Assembly (NCBI GenBank): GCA_963832045.1
Contig: CAWHSM010000004.1
Span: 244,896 to 308,895, forward strand
DNA from: an uncultured Alphaproteobacteria bacterium
GTDB taxonomy: Bacteria > Pseudomonadota > Alphaproteobacteria > Rhizobiales > Xanthobacteraceae
Direction of reading: 5' to 3'
DNA length: 64,000 bases
A program made the position numbers and the translations under genes. This document shows positions 25,899-27,292 of this stretch, piece by piece (the stretch's first letter is position 1; each line of letters starts with the position of its first letter). Under the pieces are notes generated by a model. It had not been told where the DNA came from. It worked only from the letters and a program-made list of their open reading frames with translations, and made no database searches.

Positions 25899-25977
25899 TG
25901 GTGTGGACGGCCCCACCTAAACGGCATCGAAGTGCCAAAACGTGGTCGCCGGAGCGCCACACAGAGGGAGGCCGTCC

Positions 25978-27003
25978 ATGAAGAAGTTTATCAGAACCGC
26001 AGTTGATCTGGGCAAGAACTATTTTCAGGTTCACGGGCTGCAGAGCGAGGGCGGCTTGTCGGTGTCGCGCAAGCTGAAGCGATCGAAGGTGCTTGAGTTC
26101 TATTCGCAGATTGAGCCTTGCCGCGTCGGCATGGAAGCTTGCGGCTCGGCGCATTATTGGGCGCGCGAACTGATCGCGATGGGGCACGAGGTGGTGCTGA
26201 TACCGCCAGCTTATATCAAGCCCTACGTCAAGCGCGGCAAGAACGACGCGGTCGACGCGGCTGCGATCTGCGAGGCGATGTCGCGGCCAGGCATGCGCTT
26301 TGTGCCGGTCAAGAGCGCGGATCAGCAGGCTGTGCTGATGCTGCACAAGACACGTGAACTGCTGGTCAAGCAGCGCACCATGAGCGTCAACGCGCTGCGC
26401 GGCCATCTTGCCGAGTTTGGCATTGTCGCCGCCAAGGGCATTGGCCGCATCGATGAACTGCTGGCGTTGGCGCAGGCGGATGCGGCGTTGCCGCAGATTG
26501 CCAAATCGGCGGTGGCAGGCCTGGCCCAGCATCTGGAAGGGCTCGACCAGTCGATCGAGACCATGGAGGAGGATATCGCCAAGGCGCATCGGCAAAATCC
26601 GACCAGCCGTCTGCTCGACGAGATTCCAGGTATCGGGACGCTGATTGCCTCGGCGACCGCAGCCAGTGTTCCCGACCCCGGCGTATTCAAATCGGGCCGT
26701 GACTTCGCGGCATGGCTGGGGCTGACCCCAAGGCAAAATTCCAGTGGTGGCAAGGAGAAGCTCGGCGCCATCACCAAACAGGGCAACCGCTATATCCGCA
26801 AGATGCTCGTCACCGGTGCGACCTCGGTGTTGCGTGTCGCGGGCAAGCGTAAGGGCGCTCTCGCCGACTGGATCAATGCGTTACGGGCCAGGAAGCCCGA
26901 GCGCGTGGTGGCCGTCGCGCTGGCCAACAAGCTGGCCAGGATCTGCTGGGCGATCATGACCACCGGCGAGGGGTTCCGAACAGAAACATACCTCAGAGCT
27001 TGA
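25978..27003 (+). CDS. IS110-family (IS1111-like, IS4321/IS5075-like) DEDD transposase/recombinase
   Basis: MKKFIRTAVDLGKNYFQVH..VGMEACGSAHYWAREL..GKNDAVDAAAICEAMSRPGMRFVPVK.. shows the RuvC-like DEDD N-domain pattern, followed by the C-terminal Tnp domain. ATG at 25978 with a GAGGGAGG ribosome-binding site. Confidence 0.92.
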   Translation: MKKFIRTAVDLGKNYFQVHGLQSEGGLSVSRKLKRSKVLEFYSQIEPCRVGMEACGSAHYWARELIAMGHEVVLIPPAYIKPYVKRGKNDAVDAAAICEAMSRPGMRFVPVKSADQQAVLMLHKTRELLVKQRTMSVNALRGHLAEFGIVAAKGIGRIDELLALAQADAALPQIAKSAVAGLAQHLEGLDQSIETMEEDIAKAHRQNPTSRLLDEIPGIGTLIASATAASVPDPGVFKSGRDFAAWLGLTPRQNSSGGKEKLGAITKQGNRYIRKMLVTGATSVLRVAGKRKGALADWINALRARKPERVVAVALANKLARICWAIMTTGEGFRTETYLRA

Positions 27004-27292
27004 GACGCAACTCGTTATCTGGAGGCATTCAAGCAGAATAGGAGTTAGCCGGTTCAAATTTGGCAAGCTTTAACGATGTGATGAATGAACGATACGGTTA
27101 CCACCGAAAGCCGTGGACACCCCGCCAGTCGTCACGAGCACCAAGCTCGCCGGAATGATAGGGACCACCGCAGTCGGGTATCATCAGGGCCAGCGGTCAT
27201 AATCCCGCACTAACAGGCCGGACATATGACCGAAGCAGACCAAATCGTTGCGTCAAAAAAAGAGCTTGCCAATAGGGGCCGTCCACATATGA
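27004..27292 (+). ncRNA. Candidate seekRNA/bridge-RNA region in the 3' non-coding tail of the IS1111-like element
   Basis: No credible ORF. CAGTCGTCA (27126-27134), stem-loop CGAGC-ACCAA-GCTCG (27135-27149) and CCGGAATGA (27150-27158) match the two sides of the insertion target. ACATATGAC (27222-27230) repeats the right-end junction (27285-27293). Confidence 0.45.

What the first reader, a model, noticed from the sequence alone, without database searches (positions are those of the whole stretch)
25899..27292. IS1111-type (IS110-family) element inserted in the CCGGAATGA terminus of a REP-like element
The transposase (25978-27003) has the IS4321/IS5075-like DEDD pattern (VDLGKN..MEACG..GKNDAVDAAAICEA..MRFVPVK). 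Perfect 12-bp subterminal inverted repeats, GTGGACGGCCCC (25903-25914) and GGGGCCGTCCAC (27275-27286), sit 4-5 nt inside the proposed ends. This matches the IS1111 subgroup, as does the long 3' non-coding tail (289 nt versus a 79-nt 5' leader). ATGA occurs at both junctions (25895-25898 and 27289-27292), which fits a shared core rather than a conventional target duplication. Joining the flanks recreates ..GCGCCCCGGAATGA-CGAGG... CCCGGAATGACG is the consensus end of the local family-B REPs (compare 25437-25448 and 27498-27510). The element therefore appears to target a highly repeated genomic motif.
Basis: partly seen in the sequence, partly recalled or inferred. Interest (0 to 1): 0.6.

Follow-up and report, generated by a model that had tools for sequence, protein, structure and literature searches.

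The report
RNA-guided insertion sequence targeting a Bradyrhizobium repeat
This is an ordinary mobile DNA element of a known RNA-guided family that always lands at the same spot at the end of a short repeat scattered about a hundred times through this soil bacterium's genome.

Summary
Window 25899-27292 is a 1394-bp IS1111-group (IS110-family) insertion sequence. It has a 341-aa DEDD/Ser transposase (25978-27003), perfect 12-13-bp subterminal inverted repeats, a 79-nt leader and a 289-nt 3' tail.

The genome holds 4 copies with 0-5 mismatches. All 4 lie in one orientation between CCCGGAATGA and CG. That sequence is the 3' end of the published Bradyrhizobium repeat Br-REP2. The genome keeps 97 unoccupied CCGGAATGACG sites, against about 4 expected by chance.

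The 3' tail encodes a seekRNA/bridge RNA (about 27110-27233). Its target loop carries UCGUCA and CCGGAAUGA, and its donor loop carries UAUCAUCA and ACAUAUGA.

Across relatives with 21 distinct targets, the same loop positions change with the flanks (0 of 20,000 permutations reach the observed match). The right-end guide also changes with the element's right end. Family-wide, only TG is shared between donor and target, so the ATGA identity is partly coincidental and the ends are ambiguous within 4 nt.

RNA expression, the circle and activity were not shown. This is a new member of a known kind (compare ISPa11, ISPpu10, ISEc11), of modest interest.

The parts
25899..27292 (+). Whole insertion sequence, 1394 bp. 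The ends are equally well drawn at any register from 25895-27288 to 25899-27292. Register 25896-27289 gives the family's 7-nt left and 3-nt right extensions around the 12-bp repeats.
   Evidence: Four copies align over 1-1394 with 0-5 mismatches and identical junctions. The extension rule comes from PMC11187229, Introduction.
25889..25898 (+). Left half of the target: CCCGGAATGA, the 3' end of a Br-REP2-type repeat (repeat body about 25838-25898).
   Evidence: The same 10 nt precede 4 of 4 copies. Br-REP2 consensus ends ..CCCCGGAATGA. An uninterrupted homologous repeat in a congener reads ccccggaatga|cgaac (L044).
27293..27295 (+). Right half of the target: CG plus A or G.
   Evidence: The right flanks of the 4 copies read CGA, CGG, CGA and CGA. 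Of the 97 free sites, 42 continue with A and 41 with G.
25902..25914 (+). Left subterminal inverted repeat (13 bp).
   Evidence: Read directly. Conserved in 28 of 33 related loci examined.
27275..27287 (+). Right subterminal inverted repeat (13 bp).
25978..27003 (+). Transposase/recombinase gene, 341 aa. RuvC-like DEDD domain plus a C-terminal Tnp domain with the GLTPRQNSSG serine motif (residues 248-257).
   Evidence: The ISCro4 alignment covers the MEAC, DAVDA and GLTPR..SG stretches. Most close homologues are also 341 aa.
25966..25979 (+). Third, imperfect copy of the repeat (GGGAGGCCGTCCAT). It overlaps the Shine-Dalgarno sequence and the first two bases of the start codon, and is complementary to the left repeat.
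   Evidence: A match of 9-12 of 12 (G-U allowed) sits at +58 to +70 in 25 of 25 relatives, changing together with repeat variants. The left-end RNA fold is -41.1 kcal/mol, z = -3.2.
27113..27168 (+). Predicted target-binding loop of the seekRNA/bridge RNA. Stems are GTGG 27113-16 / CCAC 27165-68 and CCC 27121-23 / GGG 27161-63. The inner hairpin is CGAGC 27135-39 / GCTCG 27145-49.
27128..27134 (+). 5' target guide (G)UCGUCA, complementary to the top strand TGACGA(C) of the target.
   Evidence: The same position carries the complement of the right flank in relatives.
27150..27159 (+). 3' target guide CCGGAAUGA, identical to the top strand of the left target half and so pairing with the bottom strand. 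The following U equals the first base of the left end.
27174..27233 (+). Predicted donor-binding loop. Stems are TCGG 27174-77 / CCGA 27230-33, GGCC 27188-91 / GGCC 27216-19 and GCGG 27193-96 / CCGC 27205-08.
27179..27186 (+). 5' donor guide UAUCAUCA, pairing with the top strand TGATGGTG of the left end (two G-U pairs).
   Evidence: Relatives show matched pairs: left end TGTG with guide CACA, TGCT with AGCA, TGGG with CCCA, TGGT with ACCA.
27222..27230 (+). 3' donor guide ACAUAUGA, identical to the right end 27285-27292. The following C equals the first base of the right flank.
   Evidence: At the three variable columns the guide equals the right end in 25, 24 and 25 of 25 relatives.
27266..27292 (+). 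Right-end half of a predicted junction promoter. The -35 is TTGCCA (27266-71), followed by a 16-nt spacer and TATGA (27288-92). The -10 becomes TATGAT only when the right end is joined to T25899.
   Evidence: Read. CTTG of the -35 is invariant in 25 of 25 relatives. Junction promoters in this family are described in PMC11187229 and PMC12288879. This is inferred, not measured.

Best explanation
This is an active or recently active IS1111-group insertion sequence whose recombinase is steered by an RNA made from its own 3' tail.

Proposed cycle:
1. The element leaves its site as a circle in which the right end is joined to the left end across a shared TG(A) core.
2. The junction completes a promoter (TTGCCA, 16 nt, TATGAT) that reads into the transposase gene and on through the tail.
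3. The tail RNA (about 27110-27233) folds into two loops.
4. The target loop pairs UCGUCA with the top strand (TGACGA) and CCGGAAUGA with the bottom strand of CCGGAATGA|CGA, the 3' edge of the Br-REP2 repeat.
5. The donor loop pairs UAUCAUCA and ACAUAUGA with the two strands of the joined ends.
6. The DEDD/Ser recombinase exchanges strands at the core. The element is inserted in one orientation, without duplicating the target.

Shown here: 4 of 4 identical sites and orientation, the guide segments, their positional conservation, their co-variation with targets and ends in relatives, and co-varying stems.

Inferred from the family's published biology: the circle, the junction promoter, RNA processing and binding, and the strand-exchange chemistry.
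For: Family assignment:
- Pfam and NCBIfam domains.
- 12-13-bp subterminal repeats, long 3' tail, 341 aa and the GL-P----SG motif, matching the criteria in PMC11187229.
- Full-length similarity to ISEc11, IS4321 and IS5075.

Site specificity:
- 4 of 4 copies lie at CCCGGAATGA|CG in one orientation.
- 97 free sites remain.
- The repeat is Br-REP2.
- Contigs of runs X1, X3 and X15 leave the window only after ATGACG, into three different flanks.

Guides:
- A 9-nt match and a 6-nt match to the two target strands lie in the tail. The top-strand complement is 5' of the bottom-strand complement and the two overlap at TGA. This is the order published for IS1111 seekRNAs.
- In 28 related elements the same two positions (about -125 and about -150 from the right repeat) carry matches to each element's own flanks.
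- Over 21 distinct targets the mean own score is 13.1, against 8.24 +/- 0.37 when permuted. 0 of 20,000 permutations reach it, and the own target is best or co-best for 18 of 21.
- The donor guide matches the right end at the variable columns in 25, 24 and 25 of 25.

Structure:
- 88.8% of cells pair, against 78.2% shuffled (0 of 500) and 28-42% when slid.
- 13 of 26 pairs show compensatory changes.
- The covariation score is 0.330, against 0.146 shuffled and 0.04-0.09 slid.
Against: - No RNA, circle or transposition was observed. All 24 runs found are kept as assembled contigs. Laying 4 of them showed no end-to-end joint, which says nothing either way. The RNA-library contigs that cover the element cannot prove transcription.
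- Rfam release 15 gave no match in 25000-28000 at E <= 1.
- RNAalifold alone predicted only 11 pairs. I drew the fuller structure by eye from these same sequences, so control (b) is biased in its favour.
- My automatic architecture test passed only 16 of 25 sequences.
- For 3 of 21 elements the own target is not the best match. L025 scores 9 on its own flanks and 14 on another element's target.
- The 5' donor guide of this element needs two G-U pairs.
- No sigma-70-like promoter for the tail was found inside the integrated copy, apart from one weak symmetric hit at 27155-27184.
Confidence: 0.88

Rival explanations
1. The transposase recognises the repeat by itself, as a DNA sequence or hairpin, and the matches in the tail are incidental.
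For: The target lies at the edge of a palindromic repeat that could extrude as a hairpin. REP targeting was described for this family long before any RNA was known (PMC1525189, abstract seen).
Against: Relatives with about 45-55% identical transposases and quite different targets, many not REP-like, carry the matching sequences at the same two tail positions. A relative with about 50% identity (L024) carries CGGAATGA at that position and sits at the same site. Dependence on the seekRNA was shown experimentally for ISEc11, ISPa11 and ISKpn4.
Confidence: 0.05
2. ATGA is a conventional 4-bp target-site duplication made by staggered cuts. The element proper would then be 25899-27288.
For: ATGA flanks all 4 copies on both sides, and uninterrupted repeats carry one ATGA. 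Integrated copies of this one element cannot tell a duplication from a shared core.
Against: The right-hand ..ATATG is conserved in relatives whatever their target, and it is matched by the donor guide in the tail in 24-25 of 25. In relatives the left and right junctions share only TGA, ATG or TG (for example L006, L032 and L013). The family is reported not to duplicate its target (PMC11187229, Introduction).
Confidence: 0.04
3. The four copies arose by duplication of larger segments, or they are inert relics, rather than by targeted transposition.
For: No activity was observed. The repeats themselves are dispersed, so repeat-mediated rearrangement is conceivable.
Against: Similarity between the copies stops exactly at the element's ends. 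The repeat stems and loops to the left, and all sequence to the right, differ between copies. The reading frames are intact in 4 of 4, with at most 5 mismatches in 1394 bp. Other samples hold the element next to yet other flanks.
Confidence: 0.03

Closest known systems
ISPa11 (IS1111 family, Pseudomonas aeruginosa)
   Same: It targets a REP repeat at a fixed position and in one orientation. [quoted passage not shown]
   Different: The host and the repeat differ (Br-REP2 end CCCGGAATGA|CG).
ISPpu10 / ISPpu9 (Pseudomonas putida KT2440)
   Same: These IS110-family elements insert into REP sequences. For ISPpu10, minicircles and a strong hybrid junction promoter are reported, with the -35 from the right end and the -10 from the left (PMC12288879, passages seen).
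   Different: ISPpu9 has its own strong promoter, antisense and extra small RNAs and several circle types. None of that was looked for or seen here. In the present element the -10 lies almost wholly in the right end, and only its last T comes from the left end.
ISEc11 (IS1111 family, E. coli)
   Same: It is the closest experimentally studied relative found: 42.0% identity over residues 3-326. Its seekRNAs of 82 and 154 nt are essential and reprogrammable.
   Different: [quoted passage not shown]
IS4321 / IS5075
   Same: The same group, with full-length alignment at 38.3% and 38.8%. They have subterminal repeats and a fixed target and orientation.
   Different: [quoted passage not shown] They are only distant relatives of this element.
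IS621 bridge recombinase/bridge RNA (IS110 group; PDB 8wt6)
   Same: A two-loop RNA with guides for both strands of target and donor around a short core. Extra 'handshake' bases match the partner DNA. The active site combines DEDD residues with a serine. In this element the base after each 3' guide fits the product junction.
   Different: In IS621 the RNA lies in the left end, upstream of the gene. Its terminal repeats are only 2-3 bp and its core is CT. The protein is similar only over the C-terminal half (E = 3.6e-9).

Membership tests
IS1111 group of the IS110 family | Transposase with an N-terminal DEDD (RuvC-like) domain and a C-terminal PF02371 domain | tested here: met
   PF01548 E = 1e-14 and PF02371 E = 4.3e-24. 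NF033542 scores 340.2 bits against a cut-off of 140.
IS1111 group of the IS110 family | GL-P----S(T)G motif in the C-terminal domain | tested here: met
   GLTPRQNSSG at residues 248-257. The motif is as given in PMC11187229 section 6.
IS1111 group of the IS110 family | Subterminal inverted repeats of 11-13 bp, perfect or nearly so | tested here: met
   A perfect 13 bp at 25902-25914 / 27275-27287.
IS1111 group of the IS110 family | Asymmetric terminal extensions beyond the repeats: 7 (or 6) bp on the left and 3 bp on the right | tested here: inconclusive
   The extensions around the 12-bp repeats sum to 10 nt. The ATGA identity allows five registers, and one of them (25896-27289) gives 7 + 3. 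Sequence alone cannot choose the register.
IS1111 group of the IS110 family | The longer non-coding region lies downstream of the transposase gene | tested here: met
   289 nt downstream against 79 nt upstream.
IS1111 group of the IS110 family | Transposase of 330-350 aa, related over its full length to IS1111-type transposases | tested here: met
   341 aa. Alignments cover 95-99% of the query against genes annotated ISEc11, IS4321 and IS5075. IS1111 itself was not compared.
IS1111 group of the IS110 family | One specific target, one orientation, no target duplication | tested here: met
   4 of 4 copies. Duplication against shared core is argued from relatives and was not shown directly.
IS1111 group of the IS110 family | Circular intermediate with abutted ends that creates a promoter | tested here: inconclusive
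   Only contigs were available and no joint was seen. The junction string occurs 0 times in the assembly. A good -35/-10 pair would form at the junction.
seekRNA / bridge RNA-guided elements | The tail holds a segment complementary to the top strand, then one complementary to the bottom strand of the target, overlapping at the insertion point | tested here: met
   27128-27134 and 27150-27158. These positions co-vary with targets in relatives.
seekRNA / bridge RNA-guided elements | The RNA is made, binds the transposase and is needed for movement | not testable with these tools
   Metatranscriptome contigs cover the tail (X15, 26755-27294) but cannot show transcription or processing.
Br-REP2 repeat (the target) | Imperfect palindrome ..GATTCCGGG-stem/loop-CCCCGGAATGA, present in many intergenic regions | tested here: met
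   The consensus in PMC5082802 section 15 agrees with the 97 genomic sites listed and with window 25838-25898.

The most novel reading that the evidence does not exclude
The subterminal repeat has a second job at the RNA level. A third, imperfect copy of it lies across the Shine-Dalgarno sequence and start codon in all 25 relatives examined, and it changes together with repeat variants. Together with the left repeat it would form a hairpin that keeps the transposase untranslated on transcripts entering from outside. Alternatively it is a third recombinase/RNA binding site used for autoregulation. If so, the 'repeats' of this clade are a three-part control module rather than just recombination sites. 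Separately, this clade offers a natural series of more than 20 retargeted guide pairs. It includes independent lineages aimed at both ends of the same repeat family.
Probability: 0.3. Interest if true: 0.45.

Novelty: new member of a known kind. Interest (0 to 1): 0.3.

Why it matters
The finding assigns a concrete, testable guide RNA and target to an uncharacterised Bradyrhizobium insertion sequence. It also links the element to the published Br-REP2 repeat, which had been proposed but not shown to be an insertion target in this genus.

The set of relatives with 21 different targets and one conserved RNA scaffold is a natural reprogramming series. It could inform guide rules (core TG, guide lengths, possible handshake bases) for the less-studied IS1111 branch of bridge recombinases.

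For genome annotation, it explains why these elements break assemblies at repeat clusters. It also shows that the 289-nt tail should be annotated as an RNA gene.

Tried and rejected
1. Rfam release 15 on window 25000-28000 at E <= 1 gave no match. No curated family covers this RNA, and this is not evidence against it.

2. The MFE fold of the whole tail pairs parts of the guides with each other, because core and anti-core are complementary. I therefore did not take the MFE as the working structure.

3. RNAalifold on the MAFFT alignment found only the two inner stems (11 pairs). MAFFT shifts the outer stems by one column in several rows. I counted a hand-drawn structure instead and gave up building a covariance model.

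4. The automatic architecture test with guides forced unpaired passed 16 of 25. Most failures came from my crude guide locator.

5. I looked for an orthologous empty site. In the 60 congeners searched, the flanking dehydrogenase and hydrolase genes are found, in those with both hits listed separated by from about 7 bp to about 4 kb (for example G218 and G227). None of those listed showed the same repeat without the element. I used a homologous GIY-YIG-plus-repeat unit elsewhere in G241 instead.

6. Circle and expression evidence from public runs: all 24 runs listed are kept as contigs, and 4 of the 24 were laid. There were no joints. Parts without cover mean nothing.

7. I considered that transcripts from the junction promoter would start inside the left repeat and so free the ribosome site. 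A start 6-8 nt after the -10 would still leave about 9 nt of the 5' arm that can pair with the Shine-Dalgarno sequence. I therefore do not claim circle-specific release.

8. The ISfinder name could not be checked with these tools. PMC219399 (Partridge & Hall 2003) is not held. One search listed no paper on a repeat copy at the start codon of IS1111-type elements. That is one search, not proof that none is in print.

9. Supplementary files were not opened. These may already list this element, its target or the repeat alignment: Supplementary Table 5 of PMC11208160, the target logos of PMC11187229 and S17 Fig of PMC5082802.

10. Rows dropped:
- Of 33 loci, no ends were found for 5 (L017, L019, L021, L022, L030).
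- L002-L004 are copies of the same element and were left out of alignments A1 and A2 (25 rows).
- L024 was also left out because its flanks are 8 nt and 1 nt.
- 24 elements collapsed to 21 distinct targets.

It appears only in the tally and match list.
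Full report
**What is there.**
- A 341-aa ORF at 25978-27003 is preceded by a GGGAGG ribosome site.
- Perfect inverted repeats lie at 25903-25914 and 27275-27286. They extend to 13 bp (25902-25914 / 27275-27287).
- ATGA stands at 25895-25898 and at 27289-27292.
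- The leader is 79 nt and the tail 289 nt.
- The protein matches PF01548 (DEDD_Tnp_IS110) and PF02371. It also matches NCBIfam NF033542, 'IS110 family RNA-guided transposase', at 340 bits against a cut-off of 140.
- It carries VDLGK, MEACG, KNDAVDA and GLTPRQNSSG. The last is the GL-P----SG motif that Siddiquee et al. give for IS1111-type transposases (PMC11187229 section 6).
- Against solved structures it matches only the bridge recombinases ISCro4 (9t56) and IS621 (8wt6), mainly over the C-terminal half (E about 1e-9 to 1e-10).
- Against plasmid records it aligns over nearly its full length with genes annotated ISEc11 (42.0%), IS5075 (38.8%) and IS4321 (38.3%). The best hit is 70.5%, in a Bradyrhizobium elkanii plasmid.
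- The closest named protein in the large protein collection is an 'IS110 family transposase' of Bradyrhizobium sp. at 85%. Many unnamed soil-metagenome proteins lie at 85-99%.

**Copies and insertion site.** The window's genome (5.43 Mb, 26 contigs, 61.5% G+C) holds four copies, each aligning over 1-1394.
- They differ from the window copy by 0, 2, 3 and 5 bases.
- All four are preceded by ..CCCGGAATGA and followed by CG (CGA, CGG, CGA, CGA), in the same orientation.
- Everything further out is unrelated except the repeat itself.
- In public runs, kept as contigs only, sequences identical or nearly identical to the element continue after 27294/27295 into three different flanks (X1, X3, X15). 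One of these is the flank of this genome's contig-3 copy.
- One short contig carries the repeat running straight from ..GGAATGA into CGGG.. without the element.

**The target is a known repeat.**
- CCGGAATGACG occurs 97 times in the genome against about 3.9 expected.
- The aligned sites show a hairpin repeat..GGATTCCGGG - variable G+C stem and loop - CCCCGGAATGACG. Conservation ends right after CG.
- Hahn et al. described this as Br-REP2. Its consensus ends ..CGAGCCGCCCCGGAATGA, it is present in well over 100 intergenic regions of B. japonicum USDA 110, and it is widespread in Bradyrhizobium and Rhodopseudomonas (PMC5082802 section 15). They noted that REPs are insertion-sequence targets in other bacteria but did not analyse this in Bradyrhizobium.
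- A homologous GIY-YIG-gene-plus-repeat unit in a congener (G241, L044) is uninterrupted and reads ccccggaatga|cgaac. This matches the joined flanks of the window copy.
- Of the 97 free sites, 42 continue with A and 41 with G. About 4 of some 100 possible sites are therefore occupied.

**Ends and core.** Because ATGA ends the left flank and also ends the element, the ends can be drawn at five registers (25895/27288 to 25899/27292). The register 25896-27289 gives the 7-nt left and 3-nt right extensions reported as typical of the family (PMC11187229 Introduction).

Relatives narrow the shared core.
- Elements with right ends ..ATATGG, and left junctions such as ..TTATGA|TGGT or ..CATCTGT|TGGG, share only ATG or TG between donor and target.
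- In the alignment of tail and right end, the base after TG agrees between guide and right end in only 16 of 25. The seven bases up to and including TG agree in 24 or 25 of 25.
- The family-wide core is therefore TG. In this element the neighbouring A on each side happens to agree as well.

**The tail encodes a seekRNA/bridge RNA.** A k-mer comparison of the tail with the joined flanks and the joined ends found the following.

| Segment | Window position | Relation |
|---|---|---|
| TCGTCA | 27129-27134 | complement of TGACGA, the core plus right flank |
| CCGGAATGA | 27150-27158 | the left flank plus core |
| ACATATGA | 27222-27229 | the right end |

- TATCATCA at 27179-27186 can pair with the left end TGATGGTG using two G-U pairs.
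- The order (top-strand complement first, then bottom-strand complement, overlapping at the insertion point) is the one reported for IS1111 seekRNAs (PMC11187229 section 9).
- Durrant et al. predicted bridge RNAs in the right end of 93% of IS1111 elements (PMC11208160, passages).

**Comparative test of the guides.** A DNA search of 200 genomes of the same family found related elements in 67. I could fix both ends in 28 of 33 loci. The transposases are 45-82% identical to this one.
- In nearly all of them the best match to the element's own left flank lies 123-131 nt before the right repeat. The best match to the complement of its own right flank lies 146-158 nt before it.
- Over 21 elements with distinct targets, the summed match of this 55-nt stretch to the own target averages 13.1 nt. 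Permuted targets give 8.24 +/- 0.37, and 0 of 20,000 permutations reach the observed value.
- The own target is the best or co-best for 18 of 21.
- The three exceptions are L011, L013 and L025. L025 fits another element's target better than its own flanks and may sit at an off-target site.
- The right-end guide follows natural variants of the right end (T/C/G, A/G, and CCAC against CCAT) in 25, 24 and 25 of 25.
- The left-end guide follows the left extension in most elements: TGTG with CACA, TGCT with AGCA, TGGG with CCCA, TGGT with ACCA. Several cases need G-U pairs and a few mismatch.

**RNA structure.** Each pair of guides faces the other across an internal loop closed by co-varying stems. 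On the 25-row alignment, my 26-pair structure compares as follows.

| Measure | Observed | Shuffled | Partners slid 1-3 columns |
|---|---|---|---|
| Cells paired | 88.8% | 78.2% (0 of 500 as high) | 28-42% |
| Covariation score | 0.330 | 0.146 | 0.04-0.09 |

- Compensatory changes occur in 13 of 26 pairs.
- The structure was drawn from these sequences, which favours it in the second control. RNAalifold by itself recovers only the two inner stems.

**Possible handshake bases.**
- The two bases after the TG core in the 3' target guide equal the donor's left end at 33 of 35 informative positions, and never the target.
- The same two bases of the 3' donor guide equal the target at 16 of 35 and the donor at 7 of 35.
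- In this element CCGGAAUGAU equals the left junction and ACAUAUGAC equals the right junction.
- This resembles the handshake guides of IS621 (PMC11208158, passages).
- The donor variation has only two states, which fall in clades. This is a hint, not a demonstration.

**Junction promoter (inferred).**
- TTGCCA (27266-27271), 16 nt and TATGA (27288-27292) become TTGCCA-16-TATGAT only when the right end meets T25899. In the integrated copy the hexamer ends in C.
- CTTG of the -35 is invariant in 25 of 25 relatives.
- Such junction promoters are described for several members of the family, and a strong one was measured for ISPpu10.
- The promoter scan of the integrated copy found nothing convincing upstream of the gene or the tail.

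**Comparison with what is known.** REP targeting by elements of this family is long established: ISPa11, ISPpu9, ISPpu10 and others (PMC1525189 abstract). RNA guidance has been established since 2024. The present element meets every family criterion I could test. The criteria that need experiments (circle, RNA, activity) remain open. It is therefore a new member of a known kind.

What is new here is modest:
- the link to Br-REP2;
- the explicit guides;
- a core of TG;
- a natural series of retargeted relatives. This series includes a relative with about 50% identity that carries the same CGGAATGA guide (L024). It also includes another (L032) aimed at the opposite edge of the same repeat family..GGTTATG|GATTCCGG.

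**Verdict.** The mechanism is very probably seekRNA/bridge-RNA-guided insertion at the 3' edge of Br-REP2 (0.88). Interest is 0.3.

I saw it, after my own analysis, and it agrees with that analysis.

Noticed in passing
window 25531-25818 (- strand), with repeat arms at about 25478-25530 and 25819-25898: A 95-aa GIY-YIG nuclease ORF (PF01541, E = 1.9e-15) sits between two halves of a REP-type element, immediately left of the insertion sequence. Units homologous to 25478-25860 at 73-81% lie at other places in several congeners. This suggests a dispersed or mobile gene-plus-repeat unit.
   Followed up: partly
window 25966-25979, and the same place in L005-L033: A third, imperfect copy of the subterminal repeat overlaps the Shine-Dalgarno sequence and start codon in 25 of 25 relatives. 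It changes together with repeat variants. With the left repeat it forms a strong predicted RNA hairpin (-41.1 kcal/mol, z = -3.2). It may be a translational brake or a third binding site.
   Followed up: partly
G000 outside the window, e.g. L056:1422-2583 (C24:50330-51491); 14 copies: A second, distantly related IS110-family element (about 1162 bp, 29% identity over the C-terminal part of the protein) is present in 14 nearly identical copies. Most are inserted after ..GGGAGAGGGTTG in a different hairpin repeat, with ..CCCCTCACCC.. about 25 nt to the right. This genome therefore hosts at least two repeat-targeting elements of the family.
   Followed up: partly
window 25390-27524: In several congeners the dehydrogenase gene (ending 25389) and the hydrolase gene (ending 27519 on the - strand) are only about 7 to 130 bp apart (G218, G227). 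Here 2.1 kb of repeats, the GIY-YIG gene and the insertion sequence have accumulated between them, a repeat-accretion hotspot.
   Followed up: partly
L025 (G126) and L023 (G067): L025's guide region fits another element's target (score 14) better than its own flanks (9), so it may be an off-target or secondary insertion. In L023 the last 9 nt before the core are the same in the right end and in the left flank, and the right-end guide differs from the right end at one base.
   Followed up: no
L045 (G232:C22) and a contig of run X1 at window 25894: Close relatives of the element (83-99% over the left end) lie after ..CGCAACGA or ..CGCTCGCAATGA in another repeat (..ATGGATTGC..GCTTCGCTC..). The lineage has variants aimed at a neighbouring repeat family.
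   Followed up: no
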